Assembly (NCBI RefSeq): GCF_026571515.1
Contig: NW_026860278.1
Span: 62,001-126,000 of the forward strand
Length of the DNA stretch: 64,000 nt
Origin: Ruditapes philippinarum
Taxonomy: Eukaryota
Direction: 5' to 3'
Shown here in pieces: positions 9,101 through 42,100 of this stretch (positions are counted from its first letter, which is position 1; each line of letters starts with the position of its first letter). The position numbers were made by a program.

Positions 9101-12100
9101 TATACCATTCTGACCAACTAGCACGCTTATAACCATCAATATGTTTTTATAAAACATTTAAAGGATGGTCGTTAAGTGGGTACCTTACATCTAACTCACA
9201 TAATTATTTGAACAATTACAATAATAATTTCAAATTATGTTTCCTTAAATAAAGTGCAGATTAATGCACCAAACTTTAGTAAAAGATATCTACATTTCTC
9301 ACAGCATGAATTTCATACCGCTTTTTTTCCCATTTTTAAACATTGTGTTGTCGAAAATCTGTATAAATGAGCCGCGTCCACAAAACCAACAATCGTACGT
9401 TTGCAACCAGTATGGATCCAGACCAGGGCCTGCTTGTAATAGGGTTTGGTAAGCGAACAGGCATGGATCCTGGTCAGAATTGCGCGGATAGCGCAGCTCT
9501 GCCTTGATCCATGCTGGTCCGCAAACGCATTTATGTTGGGATGTTGGTCGTTGAATGGCTCATATAATTTTTCAGTTGCAATTACGTGACCGGCTGGCAT
9601 TTTGTGAAGGATCTGCCAGTGGAATATTGGAATTGTATCCTTTCTGGGGCTCTGGGTTCGCTGGTCTGAAAGATAAACTGGATTTTCTATGGCAAATACC
9701 TGATGGCACCATTGTGGAAAGAAAGCGGGTAGCATAAGGAGAACCAGATTTAGCCATATTCCTGTTAAAGGGTAGCATGTTCTTTGTTCAGATCATATTC
9801 TTTCAATGACGTGCTGTAACAAATATTTTTTTTGAGGTTGCCTTGTAAAAAATTGTTTTACCTTTTTTTGAAAGGTACACCAATTTTGATCACAAAAAAA
9901 CATGAAAAACGCCAACTAAAATAATTGATTTATGATATTTAACAACACAAAATTGCATGAGTCTTTAGACAAATAATGTCTTGAAATCTAGTGATGCTTC
10001 TATAAACATGTTATTGTTTTAAACGTATCTAATCAAAACGTTCTCGACTTGTTTGTTTGCTTGATTAGGATTTACGTCAAACCGACACAGTATAGGTCAT
10101 ATGGCGACGTTCCAGCTTTAATGGTGGAGGAAGACCTCAGTTGCTTATCCTTGCATTATTTTCAGGCCCACAACGGGCACCGATGTTTCAAAAGCTAAAG
10201 CTAAATAGCTTCTCCCACATGAAAGAATCCAAATTCCCTGTCGGAATTTGAACCCACAGCATGGAACAGGCTTCTCCATTTGTCTTAACAAGAATCAAAG
10301 GACTTGCTTATACACAAATTGACCTCTGATTTCTTTTTACTCCTTAAGACTTAAAAACCTTTTTTATGTTGAAAGCAACATATACCTTTTATTAAGAATA
10401 TTAAATATTAAGGGTGTTTGGGTGATAAGGAACAATCAAAGCAGGATTGAAATTATCTGTTTATATTGGCTGCATCTTTCTTATTTTATTTAAGCATTCA
10501 TCTTGCATATTAATACATACATTTAAATATATTCAATCAATTACATACGAATCCTTAGCGTTTATATGCCTGTATTAATGAGTGCATTTTATGCAAATGC
10601 TCCGGTTTTAAAGTTTAATTTTTAAAAAAAATGATTTATCAAAAAAATACACAAAAATAATAAATTTAAAAAATACTGGGCAATTTTCAATTTTTATCAC
10701 CCAAAAATTTTTAATATACAAAACGTTTCGTTAAAGACAACAAAAAAATATAACGGGAAAAAAAATTTTTAACAAGAATTTCCCTGTATACAAAGAACTT
10801 ATAGGAATTTGGAATAATAACTGACCATAAGGAATTGAATGAAAGTTCGCGAAATCCCCATTTCAACACTTTCCTTGTAATATATTAAATAAGAGAAAAT
10901 CAACCCGTTTAAGACATTTTGAAGTTTGAAAACTTCTTTAAATGGTGTCAGAACAGTTATAAAGAAACATTGTTTTTTGTTAAAAGTAACACAGAAAGCA
11001 ACATGTTTATGTCCATTAATTCCAACAGTAAGAAACTCAACAATTAAAGACTTAACTTTTGTAGAAAAGAGAAACATTTAAAATAAAATGACCGCCAGAA
11101 GCCGAAAATTACTCAGATAACATGTAAGAATACATGATATAAGGTATTTGAAATAATTTTACACTTTTACACATTTTTGTACACAAACGCAAATATAACG
11201 GGGAAAAACAATGATGTCATACCAGGACTTGCTAGTTATACCCCTAAAAACAAAAACAACAAAATGCGTGTGCTTTTATTTTCAATCTCAAAATTTTGTA
11301 CCATTAGTTTTCATTTACTTTTTTAAAAACTATTATATGATAAACACACGGAAATCCGATATAGAACTGACTTATAATTAAAAGCAACAACTCAATAAAA
11401 CTTCAGGTCATTATGAAAATGTGACAAGTATTGTGAAGTAAATTTTAGACAGACAGACATGTACATGAAATATGATTTATGTAAAATATAAAAGAAAACA
11501 GGCGCATGTTAGAAATACATGATGATCCTGTACAAATGATGTAAACCAGTTAAAAAAACACTGTAATTCTTTAATAATTTTTGTACTAGTAATTATTTTA
11601 CCTTCTGTACAAAAATACAATCAAAACCACGAGTGCAACCACAATTAGCACAAGCACCACAAAGCCGGCTGCAACTCCAGATGCCGGAAGTCCACCGTCT
11701 TGCTTTTGTTTTTGGGCACCACTAATTGTTACTGTTTCTAAAATATAATACGATTTACTTATAATTTGATTAAATCAGAAATATGTCTTATAGAGTTATT
11801 GTTGCATTTGTTGTATTTTTGTCCTGTAAGATTATGTTAGTCTAAAAGTGAATGAGGTAAAATTTAAATGTACCAACATCTTAAGACCACGTCAAACTCT
11901 TGTGCTCAATACTGAGATCAAAAATATTTATAGCTTATAAAGACAAATACACGTACGTAATGTTTAAAGATATAGATAATTGAATAATTACCTAGACAAA
12001 CCCTGTCTTTTGGCTGAATTGCCCATTGTCCGGTTGCACCACATGTCAAATTTGGATGACTAGCAGAATGCTTAAAGCCTTTGTCGCATACGAAATCACA

Positions 12101-39100: not shown

Positions 39101-42100
39101 AGTAAGTTGTTCCAAGCAGATTATACAGTAATAAGATAATGTCATAATGATTTTACGGAAATTCATAAAGTTATGATGAAACTTCTGACTGGATTGAAGT
39201 CATAGTTCATGTAATTGTCAAAACGTTCTGATTCTTAAAACACTTTTTTCCATTAAGAGAATTTGTTCATTCTCTGTATAATATTGAAAACATGTTTGTT
39301 TTTCATGTGCATGACATTGCATGTATTTAATTTGATGTTGTATTGCATTGCATGTATTTAATTTGATGTTGTATTTACAAGATACATGTATTGCATACAT
39401 TAATAAAAAATGTTCTGTTCTGTAATACATAACATCGATGGTAAGATATTTTAGTTCATGACGTTTTATTAATAGGTAAGGACATCACACAGTATTCACT
39501 GATTATTATCAAAAAATACATAAGATTCAATATGTTGCACAATGTAATTGTAATGTAAAACTTAAAGTAATGAAATGTAATTGTAACATGTGACACTTAC
39601 CTCCTGCAAAAGGACTTGGTGGGGTTGTGGAGACTGGTCCAGGTGTCGTTGATGGCGTTACCATCTGGCCATTACAATGTAAGTAAAGTACGAGCACTAT
39701 AAGTCCGGAAATGCTACCCTTGATTGATGTATGCATTGTCCTTGTGTATATAGAACGATCTCAACACCAACTTAATCGCTTTACAAGGTTCACAATATTA
39801 AGAAAATTTCTTTGCTTGCTTTTAAGCTGTTTTCAGCATTTACTTCCTGTAGTTTTTCATCTCTAAATCTATCTGAAAAAAGGAAGTTATATAATTTAAA
39901 ATATATGCTATGTCAATTGTAACAATCAAAAGAAAATATATTTGTAGTGATAGTTTTGTTTTACATAATTGCATGTGCGACCATGACGTCACAAAGGTAG
40001 TCACGAGTATGTCTTACGTCATGCATAATGACACAAAAAGATGCCAAATATCGATTTCTACTCTTTTTAGTTTCAGATCAGATTTATGAGCATCCTGGAA
40101 AGAAGAAACAAATAAAACCAGACAAAAAACAAGCCTAAAACTTAACACAAGAAGCAACAAATGTCCATCTTTAATGACACAACACAGATCAAAGTTGTAT
40201 ATCGTATTGTCGTATAGACAACGTGTCACTGCAAAATAAAAGCTCTATTTACTCACAATCTTAAAATATAAAAAAATATAAATGTTAAAAAAAATTAGCA
40301 AAATTATATTTATTTTATTTTCCATAAAGACACCTAAATGTGATGAGTGTATGCTCTAATTTGTAGAAATTACATCTTGGCTAACATTTCGTTTTCTATA
40401 TATTTGTTTCAAGATATGCAAATCAAAATTGTTCATTTCAATCTCTTTTCTTTCTTTTTTACATTTTCTCCGTTACGAACTACAAAAGGGCTATAATTAT
40501 ACCTGTCTATTTTGTAAAACTCAATTTAAAATGATATGGTGTAAGTTTCAGTAATTGTATGTAATGGGATCGTATCATGTAAAATTGAAATGGTAAAAGC
40601 TACAAGCTATAATTATATCTCTTTTAATTTAATTTATCTGCCATGATCTTTATAATATGAACGACTTATCATGGAAAAAACGAGTTGCATTGGTGTCGTC
40701 AAACATATGTTAATATACAGCGTTGTGACTTGATACTGCTTGTACCAAAATTAAATTTCATTCTAACACACTACATGATTCCCCTTTCAAAGAGATAGGG
40801 CAATCAACTTGCATTATTACACGATATGTGCACACCATTACTAAGGAATGCTTACATGTCAAGACGTCAGATATGACGTCACTCAACCAAATGACGTCCT
40901 GTAAATGACTTCTACCCTAAATGCAGTTTAACATACTTTCATCAATTCTCATTAGATTAGCACGTTAAAATGGAAATCGATTAATTTTTCTTGCATTCTA
41001 TAGAGGATATTTGTTTAGTTCAGTGTAAGATCGGAATATATTTCACCGAGTGAGCACCAAAAGGTATATTTCACGAGTGGCGCAGCCACGAGTGAAATAT
41101 GAACTTTTGGTGTTCACAAGGTGAAATATATTTCGATCTTACACTAAACTAAACAAATTTTCTTTTTATTATATGCAAAGAAACGTTTTAAAAAGACATT
41201 AAACCTAATACTGAATGAAAAGCGCGCCAAATAATAATACAACGTGACGTCATTTATGACGTCACGTCATTAAGTTGGTAACCAGTTCTGTGCACGCTGG
41301 TATTTCACTGAAACAACGTAAGGGGCTAAAATTCAAAACAGTGAAATTATCAAAGTGGTAATTTCACTGTTTCAAACAGTGAAATTACCAGTTTTAAATC
41401 ACTGATATATTTCTATAAACCACCGAAAAGCATGTAATAAAGTATAATAATACACGGTAATAGTTCAAATGCTTTGTAATTAGTCACTAAGGCTCATAGA
41501 CCTTCCTGATTGTAATTCTGCGCATTTGAACGCACCCAGAATTGATATAAATTTCCTTAACAAAGTGTAATATCATTAAAACATTACACGGGAAATTCTA
41601 TTGCTAGTAAGGCGCAATAAAAGACGATTTCGATCATTGTAAAAAAGTGTATGACATATATTCCAGGCATAGGTTATATCTATTTTGTCGTTTTATAATC
41701 TTTGGACTTTCAAATGTAAAATTTTGACCAAATATTTTGTTTCTTAATACTTGAATTTGAAATTTGAATTATAAGTACCATTTAAGACATACATAACAGA
41801 AATAACCGGGATGATAAATATAGATTGCCTTACTTTCGCACTTTTATGTTAATGTTTGAGTGCCCGCTTAGCCATTCAAAATGAGAAAACAGAACTTTAT
41901 TGCCCTTAGCATATAAGTATTTAAATATCTGATTAATTTGAAAGTAAAATGTTTGTAGAAATAAATATTTAAGACTTTTAAGTAATAAAAACACATGTTA
42001 ATCAGATACTTGTGCTACATTTAAATAGATGAAATAAATTTCAACGCTTATTTAATTTCATTATCTTTCTTGAAGTCTTTTATAGCTTTTTCAAATGTCT

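What the first reader, a model, noticed from the sequence alone, without database searches (positions are those of the whole stretch)
11602..39736. Unusual receptor architecture: three YWTD/EGF units plus five Sushi domains and no LDLa repeats
Seen: SP-(propeller-EGF)x3-(Sushi)x5-TM. Established: LDLR, LRP1/2/4 and LRP5/6 all carry LDLa repeats and lack a Sushi stalk, while stalks of 6-Cys CCP modules are typical of selectins. Inference: a lineage-specific chimeric endocytic, adhesion or immune receptor that automated pipelines would probably label 'LRP4/LRP6-like'. I cannot verify novelty without a database search.
Basis: partly seen in the sequence, partly recalled or inferred. Interest (0 to 1): 0.65.

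Follow-up and report, generated by a model that had tools for sequence, protein, structure and literature searches.

The report
Clam receptor: three propellers, Sushi stalk
This is a real bivalve gene for a cell-surface receptor made of three beta-propeller/EGF units and five Sushi modules with no LDL-type ligand-binding repeats, and it belongs to an undescribed clam gene family that databases label LRP1/2/4/5/6-like.

Summary
On the minus strand, 26 exons (39736 to 11602) chain with AG/GT sites, continuous phases and no stops, giving 1416 codons. They encode a signal peptide, three YWTD-propeller/EGF units, five 6-Cys Sushi modules and a TM helix. No LDLa repeat exists in any frame of the 64 kb.

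- The first strands of propeller 2 lie on a separate exon.
- A Thr/Pro-rich exon with a furin-like GRKKRQ site follows it.
- Cytoplasmic-tail exons continue down to about 7852.

[quoted passage not shown] Named relatives come from Mercenaria, Ruditapes, Mya and Dreissena, with a divergent one from Sinanodonta. None has LDLa, and 9 of 10 modelled tails carry NPxY.

In a propeller tree the three propellers fall outside the LRP4 and LRP5/6 clades and group with LDLa-less amphioxus and crinoid proteins.

In the window the tail exons need about 10 frame changes. This is probably insertion-rich assembly error beside an N gap.

Most likely this is an NPxY-coupled surface receptor that binds ligands through its propellers. 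It is a new variant of a known kind, of moderate interest.

The parts
39601..39736 (-). E1: start ATG, signal peptide, short Thr/Pro-rich stretch; phase-1 donor
   Evidence: First ATG of the ORF, a hydrophobic core then 'NGQ', and a GTAAGT donor. No Pfam hit.
34608..34809 (-). E2: propeller 1, N-terminal strands and blade 1
   Evidence: 69% identical to P0030 31-102. Family-free propeller profile positions 34-52, E 0.063, not significant.
33786..34049 (-). E3: propeller 1
   Evidence: Pfam Ldl_recept_b E 0.0091. Profile positions 78-129, E 7e-11.
33084..33336 (-). E4: propeller 1
   Evidence: Pfam Ldl_recept_b E 2.1e-12. Profile positions 132-214, E 2.5e-25.
31865..32033 (-). E5: propeller 1, last blade
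   Evidence: 81% identical to P0030 275-326. Profile positions 217-260, E 4.7e-4.
30858..30965 (-). E6: EGF1 (6 Cys), phase 1-1
   Evidence: FXa_inhibition E 5.2e-6 and EGF E 2.7e-4. 6 Cys.
30142..30278 (-). E7: 2-Cys module, probably the first two beta-strands of propeller 2
   Evidence: 53% identical to P0030 364-429. Maps to profile positions 2-28 at E 0.041, suggestive only. GTAAGT donor.
28932..29058 (-). E8: Thr/Pro-rich (mucin-like) insert with dibasic GRKKRQ site
   Evidence: Phases 0 to 1 fit E7 and E9, with a GTAAGT donor. RX[KR]R at the same place in 6 of 12 family proteins. The equivalent segment is disordered in the model.
28221..28379 (-). E9: propeller 2
   Evidence: 70% identical to P0030 452-505. 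Not significant against Pfam or the family-free profile.
27509..27665 (-). E10: propeller 2
   Evidence: Family-free profile E 1.3e-6. 50% identical to P0030.
27034..27168 (-). E11: propeller 2
   Evidence: Profile E 0.0069. 51% identical to P0030.
26309..26420 (-). E12: propeller 2
   Evidence: Profile E 0.0018. The 3' end and donor are copied in an intronic minisatellite.
25221..25380 (-). E13: propeller 2, last blade
   Evidence: 59% identical to P0030 639-692. Not significant against the profile.
24498..24629 (-). E14: EGF2 (6 Cys), phase 1-1
   Evidence: FXa_inhibition E 1.8e-8. 6 Cys.
23512..23742 (-). E15: propeller 3
   Evidence: Profile positions 45-113, E 7.4e-7.
22484..22658 (-). 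E16: propeller 3
   Evidence: Profile E 6e-5. The acceptor lies at the edge of a 55-bp minisatellite.
21829..21962 (-). E17: propeller 3
   Evidence: Pfam Ldl_recept_b E 2e-5. Profile E 9e-9.
21182..21350 (-). E18: propeller 3
   Evidence: Pfam Ldl_recept_b E 0.044. Profile E 5.4e-10.
17373..17491 (-). E19: propeller 3, last blade
   Evidence: 62% identical to P0030 975-1013. No profile or Pfam match.
16850..16981 (-). E20: EGF3 (6 Cys), phase 1-1
   Evidence: FXa_inhibition E 1.9e-7. 6 Cys.
15969..16184 (-). E21: CCP/Sushi 1 (6 Cys, 13-residue insert), phase 1-1
   Evidence: Pfam Sushi E 0.095, marginal. 6 Cys aligned with the other four modules.
14179..14349 (-). E22: CCP/Sushi 2 (6 Cys), phase 1-1
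   Evidence: Pfam Sushi E 5.2e-4..
13307..13474 (-). E23: CCP/Sushi 3 (6 Cys), phase 1-1
   Evidence: No Pfam hit. Aligns on 6 invariant Cys and cross-matches other CCPs of P0030.
12936..13103 (-). E24: CCP/Sushi 4 (6 Cys), phase 1-1
   Evidence: Pfam Sushi E 6.4e-4. 73% identical to P0030 1245-1300.
11992..12171 (-). E25: CCP/Sushi 5 (6 Cys), phase 1-1
   Evidence: Pfam Sushi E 1.9e-7..
11602..11737 (-). E26: juxtamembrane stretch, TM helix and 'YRR'; phase-2 GT donor overlapping a TAA
   Evidence: A hydrophobic run of about 23 residues followed by RR. Aligns to the TM of 8 family tails.
9590..9761 (-). E27: first cytoplasmic-tail exon. It holds the proximal NPxY coding sequence (AIENPVY, about 9693-9673), but in another frame than the exon start. 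Read as assembled, the frame stops at 9574-9572.
   Evidence: The acceptor completes the split Arg codon. Frameshift-aware alignment to the P0030 tail scores 109 against shuffles of 24.5+-3.5 and needs 6 frame changes. The 3' boundary is approximate.
7852..7981 (-). Terminal tail exon (distal NPxY region and conserved C-terminus, stop at 7852-7854). Its 5' end may lie in the N run at 7999-8145.
   Evidence: tblastn to P0030 1491-1507, E 0.005. Frameshift-aware score 111 against 21.1+-3.4, with 4 frame changes.

Best explanation
This is a genuine protein-coding gene of a bivalve. The species was not determined, and the window is not human.

It encodes a type I membrane glycoprotein with these parts, in order:
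- a signal peptide;
- three six-bladed YWTD beta-propellers, each followed by an EGF module;
- a mucin-like Thr/Pro-rich insert with a furin-type dibasic site in the first loop of propeller 2;
- a stalk of five 6-Cys CCP (Sushi) modules;
- one TM helix;
- a cytoplasmic tail.

It is the counterpart of Mercenaria P0030. It belongs to an uncharacterised bivalve gene family that is related to the LDL-receptor superfamily but lacks LDLa repeats.

Shown here: the anatomy, the family membership, the absence of LDLa, and placement outside the LRP4 and LRP5/6 propeller clades.

Inferred mechanism:
- The propellers are the ligand-binding surfaces, as in LRP4, LRP5/6 and nidogen.
- The CCP stalk is a spacer of variable length (2-14 modules among paralogues) that holds the propellers away from the membrane.
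- The tail's two PhixNPxY motifs dock PTB-domain adaptors, so the receptor is internalised or scaffolds signalling, as in LDLR and LRP1.
- Where the dibasic site is present, furin-type cleavage may give a two-chain receptor held together by propeller 2.

The frame breaks in the window's tail exons are most likely local assembly error.
For: Gene structure: 26 exons have AG/GT sites, continuous phases and 0 stops, covering 1416 codons. Each EGF and CCP exon has exactly 6 Cys and phase 1-1 boundaries.

Domains.

No LDLa.

Relatives:
- The gene is colinear with P0030 over residues 31-1402 and 1491-1507.
- It shares 866/1380 identities (63%) with P0030 over 23 exon HSPs and has the same 5 CCPs.
- The 17 top hits score 609-2559 bits. 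0 of 17 carry PF00057 and 9 of 17 carry PF00084.

Tree: the P1-, P2- and P3-like clades have support 100/98, 100/97 and 100/99. None lies inside the LRP4 or LRP5/6 clades.

Structure: the P0045 model has propeller 3 at pLDDT 80-91 with 24 strands and propeller 2 at 70-89, all-beta. Foldseek aligns 976 columns to the LRP4 ectodomain, E 4.9e-52.

Tail:
- NPxY is present in 9 of 10 family tails that have a modelled TM. PPP[ST]P is present in 0 of 10.
- The window holds AIENPVY at the orthologous spacing.
- NPXY as an adaptor docking site, and furin processing of LRP1 into non-covalently bound chains, come from passages of PMC11325810.

Assembly error: the repeat copy at 9354-9571 shows 59 indel events with extra bases on the patch side against 14 on the other side over 16 alignments. 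Two ectodomain control exons need 0 frame changes. An N gap and a tandem repeat abut the terminal exon.
Against: - No ligand, expression or trafficking data exist for any family member. Five literature searches found nothing.
- Read as assembled, the window's tail stops at 9574-9572 with no NPxY in frame.
- The 10 frame breaks are not in long homopolymers. The longest run within +-8 nt is 2-4, so simple homopolymer error does not explain them.
- The 16 repeat alignments all involve one patch segment and are not independent.
- In LRP1 the dominant endocytosis signal is YXXL, not NPXY (PMC11325810 passage), so NPxY does not prove endocytosis.
- The dibasic site is absent from 6 of 12 family proteins, including the closest relative P0030.
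- Propeller-2 exons E9 and E13 and propeller-3 exon E19 have no significant match on their own.
- The whole-protein model is poor (mean pLDDT 61.8, pTM 0.41), so the arrangement of domains cannot be read from it.
- Assignment of E7 to propeller 2 rests on non-significant matches.
Confidence: 0.6

Rival explanations
1. This is an adhesion or immune-recognition receptor in which the CCP modules, not the propellers, are the working part. They would bind complement-like or microbial or self ligands, as in complement regulators or selectins, and the family diversifies as recognition genes do.
For: - The CCP profile matches CR1 (4.9e-32), CR2, factor H and DAF, and E-selectin at 3.9e-6.
- All five modules have the 6-Cys pattern.
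- Mercenaria has at least 9 named family proteins, with 2-14 CCP-pattern matches in those that reach the stalk. Several lie on the same contig.
- Related propeller cassettes in echinoderms sit beside Sushi, Ig and trypsin domains.
Against: - No C-type lectin domain was found in any exon, so it is not a selectin.
- The propellers are the most conserved part of the family (invariant columns; 63% overall identity).
- CCP number varies freely, as expected of a spacer.
- NPxY tails point to adaptor coupling, which is compatible with this rival but not specific to it.
Confidence: 0.2
2. The window copy is a decaying or tail-truncated paralogue. The frame breaks in the tail exons are real, so this copy makes a receptor without NPxY motifs (a decoy or non-internalising form) or is on its way to being a pseudogene.
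For: - About 10 frame changes are needed in about 300 nt of tail coding sequence.
- Read as assembled, the frame stops at 9574-9572.
- The breaks are not in long homopolymers.
Against: - All 26 upstream exons (1416 codons) are intact.
- Within each frame-consistent piece the tail remains well conserved. The frameshift-aware alignments score z = 24 and 26 against shuffles, which is not expected after enough neutral decay to collect 10 indels.
- The neighbouring non-coding repeat copy shows the same one-sided excess of extra bases, 59 against 14.
- An N gap and a tandem repeat lie in the same patch.
Confidence: 0.13
3. It is a divergent LRP5/6 (Arrow)-type Wnt co-receptor or an LRP4-type receptor that has lost its LDLa repeats.
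For: - The best propeller-1 exon gives arthropod LRP6 as its top-scoring hits (34-48% identity over 74-82% of the exon).
- The PDB profile hits LRP2, LRP4 and LRP6.
- Foldseek's top hit is LRP4.
Against: - All three propellers lie outside the well-supported LRP5/6 p1-p4 and LRP4 p1-p4 clades.
- There are three propellers, not four.
- 0 of 10 family tails have PPP[ST]P.
- There is no LDLa.
- A separate LDLa-bearing bivalve LRP4-like protein (Ostrea) was found.
Confidence: 0.04
4. This is a gene-model artefact: two neighbouring genes, a propeller gene and a Sushi/TM gene, read as one.
For: The 3.7-kb intron between E18 and E19 holds a transposon-like inverted repeat. No transcript evidence was available.
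Against: - Phases are continuous across every junction with no stop.
- The same order occurs in predicted proteins of four genera and in unnamed proteins.
- No start or signal peptide precedes the CCP exons.
Confidence: 0.03

Closest known systems
[quoted passage not shown]
   Same: It has the same order of modules: SP, three propeller/EGF units, Thr/Pro insert, five 6-Cys CCPs, TM and tail. It is colinear with the window and 63% identical. It has no LDLa.
   Different: P0030 lacks the dibasic site in the insert. Its tail is in one frame with two NPxY motifs. Paralogues have 2-14 CCPs. None has been characterised, and the names are automatic.
LRP5/LRP6/Arrow
   Same: Both have tandem YWTD propeller/EGF units at the N-terminus of a type I receptor. 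Exon-level similarity reaches 48%, and PDB hits reach E 2e-58.
   Different: LRP5/6 has four propellers, three LDLa repeats and PPP[ST]P tail motifs. This protein has three propellers, no LDLa, CCPs, and NPxY instead (0 of 10 tails with PPP[ST]P). Its propellers lie outside the LRP5/6 clades.
LRP4 (MEGF7)
   Same: It is the best structural match for the run of propeller/EGF units (8s9p, 976 aligned columns, E 4.9e-52). From my own recall, LRP4 also has an NPxY-type tail.
   Different: LRP4 has an N-terminal LDLa cluster, four propellers and no CCP stalk. The family's propellers lie outside the LRP4 clades.
LDLR / LRP1
   Same: Both combine YWTD/EGF units, one TM and NPxY tail motifs. LRP1 is cut by furin into two non-covalently bound chains (PMC11325810 passages), which is the model for the dibasic site here.
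   Different: Their ligand binding is mapped to LDLa clusters, which are absent here. They have no CCP modules.
Pro-epidermal growth factor
   Same: It is an LDLa-less type I membrane protein with YWTD propellers and EGF modules (P0154 has no PF00057). Its first propeller groups with the P2-like clade (94/72, on a long branch).
   Different: It has two propellers, many EGF modules and no CCP. The grouping is weakly supported.
Selectins
   Same: Both have a stalk of CCP modules with six cysteines next to the membrane. The cysteine count of selectin CCPs is recalled. E-selectin is hit at 3.9e-6.
   Different: There is no C-type lectin domain. Complement regulators score higher than selectin.
LDLa-less multi-propeller proteins of other phyla: Branchiostoma P0054/55, Antedon P0066, Ptychodera P0109, Lingula P0127
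   Same: Their propellers are the nearest outgroups of P1, P2 and P3, in matching order. They have no LDLa. Antedon also has 4 Sushi modules.
   Different: The C-terminal parts differ: Ig and trypsin in Antedon; LamG, TSP1 and pentaxin in Lingula; six propellers in amphioxus. All are uncharacterised.

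Membership tests
LDL receptor family in the strict sense (LDLR, VLDLR, LRP1, LRP2, LRP4, LRP5/6) | LDLa (class A, complement-type) ligand-binding repeats | tested here: not met
   Four regexes found nothing in six frames. My own LDLa profile found 3-12 modules in 5 of 5 held-out LRPs and none in 8 of 8 family proteins, and its best E among 1508 window ORFs was 0.23. No PF00057.
LDL receptor family in the strict sense | YWTD six-bladed beta-propeller followed by an EGF module | tested here: met
   Pfam Ldl_recept_b and FXa_inhibition on single exons. Family-free profile. 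Model and Foldseek.
LDL receptor family in the strict sense | Single TM helix and a cytoplasmic NPxY motif | tested here: inconclusive
   The TM is clear. NPxY occurs in 9 of 10 relatives' tails. In the window the motif's coding sequence is present but out of frame as assembled.
LRP5/6/Arrow | Four propeller/EGF units, three LDLa repeats and PPP[ST]P tail motifs; propellers orthologous to p1-p4 | tested here: not met
   Three propellers in every family member. No LDLa. PPP[ST]P in 0 of 10 tails. Outside the p1-p4 clades.
LRP4 | N-terminal LDLa cluster and four propellers orthologous to LRP4 p1-p4 | tested here: not met
Selectins | N-terminal C-type lectin domain followed by EGF | tested here: not met
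   No Lectin_C hit in any of the 24 exon ORFs or in relatives.
Selectins | Membrane-proximal CCP modules with six cysteines | tested here: met
   Six invariant Cys across the five CCP exons. E-selectin is hit at 3.9e-6. That selectin CCPs have six Cys is recalled, not tested.
Uncharacterised bivalve family (three propellers, CCP stalk, TM, NPxY tail; P0030-like) | Colinear P1-EGF, P2-EGF, P3-EGF, CCPn and TM with family-specific P1, P2 and P3 clades | tested here: met
   The window is colinear with P0030 at 63% identity. Family clades have 100% bootstrap. The window's own exons were not placed in the tree, because that would need joined exons.
Uncharacterised bivalve family | Tail with proximal IENPxY, distal NPxY and a conserved C-terminus | tested here: inconclusive
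   All three elements are recognisable in the window's DNA, but only across about 10 frame changes.
Furin-processed two-chain receptors (LRP1-like processing) | An accessible R-X-K/R-R site that is cleaved in vivo | not testable with these tools
   The GRKKRQ motif lies in E8. RX[KR]R occurs at the same place in 6 of 12 family proteins. The segment is disordered in the model. Cleavage itself was not tested.

The most novel reading that the evidence does not exclude
The gene represents an old, unnamed bilaterian lineage of LDLa-less receptors built on a fixed three-propeller cassette (P1-P2-P3), distinct from LRP4 and LRP5/6. Different phyla have coupled this cassette to different C-terminal modules. 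In heteroconch bivalves it gained a variable-length 6-Cys CCP stalk and an NPxY tail and expanded into a multigene family of endocytic recognition receptors. Some members would be cut by furin inside a loop of propeller 2, so that the propeller itself holds the two chains together.
Probability: 0.3. Interest if true: 0.55.

Novelty: new variant of a known kind. Interest (0 to 1): 0.4.

Why it matters
The textbook view of the LDL-receptor superfamily ties ligand capture to LDLa repeats. A conserved, expanded receptor family that keeps the propeller/EGF units and the NPxY tail but replaces LDLa with a CCP stalk would show that propellers alone can serve as the ligand-binding part of such a receptor.

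It also matters for annotation. These proteins are currently counted as 'LRP1/2/4/5/6-like', so counts of LRP gene families in bivalve genomes may include them. One example is the LRP1B and LRP4 expansions discussed in passages of PMC9993606. I could not see its supplementary tables, so I could not check this.

The tree suggests that the three-propeller cassette is an ancient unit reused with different partners in several phyla.

The finding is a useful family-level description. It does not answer a long-standing open question.

Tried and rejected
- **Pfam on propeller-2 exons:** no hit. I replaced this with hhalign and a family-free profile.
- **First propeller-unit extraction:** it was patchy, missing propeller 2 and several LRP6 propellers, so I discarded it. 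The second generic profile was trained with family P2 segments, so it is circular for P2. I used it only to cut units for the tree.
- **Screen 'no LDLa and P2-profile >= 40 bits' (62 of 150 representatives):** rejected as a family count. 84 of 122 LDLa-bearing proteins also reach 40 bits, whereas true members score 262-378.
- **The listing of cluster members for ten unnamed representatives:** not run, because the database is switched off. The organisms of P0164-P0300 therefore stay unknown, and the taxonomic breadth of the family is a lower bound.
- **Homopolymer explanation of the tail frame breaks:** not supported.
- **First repeat-based quality test:** it gave only one alignment. The relaxed version gave 16, which are not independent.
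- **E7 as the N-terminal strands of propeller 2:** 9 of 12 real segments start within profile positions 2-11, but at E 0.04-1.2, which is not significant.
- **Whole-protein model:** mean pLDDT 61.8 and pTM 0.41, so I did not interpret inter-domain geometry.
- **Literature:** no paper describing a YWTD plus Sushi receptor without LDLa. PMC7853314 and PMC9993606, read as passages only, mention LRP-like proteins but not this architecture.
- **Not attempted:**
All window evidence is per exon, and full-length work used database proteins.
  - The N run at 7999-8145 was not filled.

Full report
**Nature of the window.** The 64 kb are AT-rich (GC 0.28-0.35). They hold one run of 147 N at 7999-8145, which I left untouched. 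The gene's closest relatives are clam proteins, so I take the contig for a bivalve genome and not human. The species was not determined.

**Method constraint.** Every test on the window was done exon by exon. Full-length analyses used database proteins returned by the searches.

**Checking the observation.** Stop-to-stop ORFs on the minus strand show the candidate exons. Pfam on 24 of them, each alone, gave:
- Ldl_recept_b in four (E 2.1e-12, 2e-5, 0.0091, 0.044);
- EGF-type FXa_inhibition in three (5.2e-6, 1.8e-8, 1.9e-7);
- Sushi in four of the five CCP ORFs (1.9e-7, 5.2e-4, 6.4e-4 and a marginal 0.095);
- nothing for CCP3, for all five propeller-2 ORFs, or for five other propeller ORFs.

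Splice-site and phase arithmetic gives a closed chain of 26 exons from the ATG at 39736 to a GT donor after 11602. Every exon has AG/GT, phases are continuous, there is no in-frame stop, and the total is 4250 nt (1416 codons plus 2 nt). Each of the three EGF exons and the five CCP exons has exactly six cysteines and phase 1-1 borders.

The five CCP exon translations align on six invariant cysteines. Their profile hits CR1 (4.9e-32), CR2, factor H and DAF, and E-selectin at 3.9e-6.

**No LDLa.** Four LDLa regexes found nothing in six frames. I then built an LDLa profile from 38 modules of seven stored LRPs. It found 3-12 modules in each of 5 of 5 held-out LRPs and none in 8 of 8 family proteins. 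Among all 1508 window ORFs of at least 25 aa, the best hit had E = 0.23. Only the 147 N could hide anything.

**Relatives.** The best propeller-1 exon (84 aa), searched against longer proteins, returned 40 hits. Most are arthropod LRP6 with LDLa, at 34-48% identity over 74-82% of the exon. The hits covering 99-100% of the exon at 52-62% identity are clam proteins without PF00057, and three of them carry PF00084.

A profile of three named clam proteins gave 17 top hits at 609-2559 bits from Mercenaria, Ruditapes, Mya, Dreissena, Sinanodonta and two unnamed records. 0 of 17 carry PF00057 and 9 of 17 carry PF00084. Scores then drop to 554 bits or less for amphioxus LDLa-less proteins and the LDLa-bearing LRP4/5/6 of many phyla, at 21-26% identity.

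A second profile from the most divergent members added only one Ruditapes and one Dreissena protein.

tblastn of Mercenaria P0030 (1512 aa) onto the window gives colinear minus-strand HSPs for residues 31-1402 and 1491-1507. Over 23 exon HSPs identity is 866/1380 (63%), the highest of 16 proteins compared, and P0030 also has five CCPs.

- E7 (30278-30142) is a conserved 2-Cys module.
- E8 (29058-28932) is a Thr/Pro-rich exon containing GRKKRQ.
- The gene continues past 11602.

RX[KR]R occurs at the same place in 6 of 12 core family proteins, but not in P0030. The equivalent segment of the P0045 model is disordered, with pLDDT below 50.

E7 probably supplies the first two strands of propeller 2. 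The family's propeller-2 match to a generic propeller profile starts only at about position 21, and 9 of 12 E7-like segments align to positions 2-33 of a family-free profile. The E-values are 0.04-1.2, so this is suggestive only.

**Is region 2 a propeller?**
- hhalign gives P1 vs P3 97.3% (E 1.7e-11), P2 vs P1 80% (E 1.4e-5, 181 columns) and P2 vs P3 64-66%.
- A profile built from 60 propeller units of non-family proteins detects propeller 2 in 8 of 8 family proteins at E 4e-28 to 1.5e-14.
- On the window's own exons the same profile gives:
  - E3 7e-11, E4 2.5e-25 and E5 4.7e-4 for propeller 1;
  - E10 1.3e-6, E11 7e-3 and E12 2e-3 for propeller 2;
  - E15 to E18 between 7e-7 and 5e-10 for propeller 3;
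  - E2, E7, E9 and E13 not significant, and E19 unmatched.
- An AlphaFold2 model of P0045 with an 11-sequence alignment has mean pLDDT 61.8 and pTM 0.41. The propeller-2 region is at 70-89 and all-beta, and propeller 3 is at 80-91 with 24 strands.
- Foldseek's best match is the LRP4 ectodomain (8s9p, 976 columns, E 4.9e-52), then LRP2 and the LRP6 tandem propellers.
- The PDB sequence profile hits LRP2 (2e-194), LRP4, LRP6, LDLR and nidogen, and CR2 for the stalk.

**Propeller phylogeny.** From 21 proteins that I chose for having names and covering LRP4, LRP5/6, LRP1, pro-EGF and the LDLa-less proteins, out of 156 stored, I cut 80 propeller units. Units shorter than 200 aa or covering less than 70% of the profile were dropped.

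The careful IQ-TREE run (LG+C20+F+G4; ultrafast bootstrap / SH-aLRT) gives:
- P1-like, P2-like and P3-like clades (five family proteins plus the Sinanodonta units) at 100/98, 100/97 and 100/99.
- LRP5/6 p1-p4 and LRP4 p1-p4 form their own clades, with no family unit inside.
- The nearest outgroups of P1, P2 and P3 are:
  - P1: amphioxus p2/p5 and Antedon p1 (98/85, 97/76);
  - P2: amphioxus p3/p6 (94/66), with pro-EGF p1 (94/72) on a long branch;
  - P3: amphioxus p1/p4, Antedon p3 and Actinia p2-4 (99/62, 95/89, 100/92).

The window's own exons are not in the tree, since that would need joining.

Pfam shows that these outgroup proteins also lack LDLa and carry other partners:
- Antedon has 4 Sushi, Ig and trypsin.
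- Actinia has HYR, Sushi and Ephrin_rec_like.
- Lingula has LamG, TSP1 and pentaxin.
- Ptychodera has none.

**Breadth.** An exhaustive phmmer run of P0045 against 1.84 billion representatives gave 9185 hits at E <= 1e-3 and 408 at <= 1e-30. Of the best 150, 106 have no LDLa by my profile.

Pfam confirms Ldl_recept_b plus EGF plus Sushi without LDLa in four unnamed ones. These include P0165 (1483 aa, five CCP-pattern matches, TM, an NPxY tail) and P0174, which is 46% identical to the Sinanodonta protein.

The range 'heteroconch bivalves' is therefore a lower bound drawn from named hits only.

**The tail.** Family tails share three elements:
- a proximal IENPGY or FENPGY;
- a distal NP(L/M)Y in the tails of P0030, P0043, P0047, P0049 and P0050;
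- in P0030 and P0047, a conserved C-terminus.

NPxY is present in 9 of 10 tails with a modelled TM, and PPP[ST]P in 0 of 10.

In the window, the TM exon's phase-2 donor (11602) joins an acceptor at 9763-9762. The first tail residues match P0030. However, AIENPVY lies in another frame of the same exon, and the frame as assembled stops at 9574-9572.

My frameshift-aware alignment (BLOSUM62, frame change -9, 60 shuffles) scores 109 against 24.5+-3.5 for the first tail exon with 6 frame changes. It scores 111 against 21.1+-3.4 for the terminal exon (about 7981-7852) with 4 frame changes. Two ectodomain exons need none.

The breaks are not in long homopolymers. The interspersed-repeat copy right next to the exon (9354-9571) shows 59 indel events with extra bases on its side against 14 on the other side, across 16 alignments to other copies in the window. 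These alignments are not independent. The baseline of 39 outside-outside alignments is symmetric, 85 against 70. A tandem repeat (8160-8440) and the N gap abut the terminal exon.

I therefore favour an insertion-rich, low-quality stretch of assembly (about 0.8) over real decay of the tail.

**Mechanism.**
- *Shown:* the anatomy, the family, the absence of LDLa, and separation from LRP4/5/6.
- *From established knowledge:* propellers of LRP4, LRP5/6 and nidogen bind protein ligands. NPXY motifs dock adaptor proteins, and LRP1 is cut by furin into two non-covalently bound chains (passages of PMC11325810). That paper also notes that YXXL, not NPXY, dominates LRP1 endocytosis.
- *Inferred:* this is a surface receptor that binds ligands with its propellers, uses the CCPs as a spacer, couples to PTB adaptors through NPxY, and in some members is processed at the dibasic site.

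**Literature.** Five full-text searches found no description of this architecture. I read only passages of PMC9993606, PMC7853314 and PMC11325810, and the other papers only as search listings. Supplementary tables were closed. Table S11 of PMC9993606, which counts bivalve LRP families, might include these genes.

**Verdict.** This is a new variant of a known kind, of moderate interest.

Noticed in passing
window 25678-26337: An intronic minisatellite (TRF periods 155 and 232, 91-93% matches) begins inside the 3' end of exon E12 and repeats the exon end. tblastn sees the exon's last 13 codons again at spacings of about 77 bp or multiples of it. Whether each copy keeps the GT donor, and so offers cryptic donors, was not checked.
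   Followed up: partly
window 22654-23288: A 55-bp minisatellite (11.6 copies, 77% matches) ends exactly at the acceptor of exon E16, so the repeat unit includes the acceptor region.
   Followed up: no
window 7999-8145 and 8160-8440: The only N run of the window sits just upstream, in gene sense, of the terminal coding exon and abuts a 69-bp tandem repeat. About 12 codons of the tail between the two tail exons are unaccounted for and may lie under the N run, which was not filled.
   Followed up: partly
window about 7870-9770: This patch appears rich in extra single bases. About 10 frame changes occur in the two tail exons, and a repeat copy shows 59 one-sided indel events against 14, compared with its relatives elsewhere in the window. 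It looks like low-quality assembly near a gap.
   Followed up: yes
window 1138-1386, 9354-9571, 13622-13847, 15296-15409, 29065-29314, 45087-45292: These are copies of one interspersed repeat family, about 72-86% identical to each other, mostly in introns. The copy at 29065-29314 ends right at the acceptor of exon E8. It was not classified.
   Followed up: no
window 18006-18160 and 20928-21082: A 155-nt inverted repeat, 95% complementary with 2767 nt between the arms, lies inside the 3.7-kb intron between E18 and E19. It looks like a transposon with long terminal inverted repeats.
   Followed up: no
window 39800-64000: Only 5 ORFs of at least 90 aa occur in 24 kb upstream of the gene, and none is recognisable. 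There is no tandem paralogue of the receptor in the window: the only further P0030 match, at 60676-60759, has E = 0.12.
   Followed up: partly
database proteins P0041-P0044, P0029, P0030 (Mercenaria): Several Mercenaria paralogues lie on the same contigs (lengths 91270759 and 46480821) and differ mainly in CCP number (2-14). This suggests tandem expansion with stalk-length variation.
   Followed up: no
database protein P0052 (Sinanodonta) and unnamed P0164: These carry five or six propellers in the order P1-P2-P3-P1-P2(-P3). This is either an internal duplication of the cassette or two neighbouring genes fused in the models.
   Followed up: no
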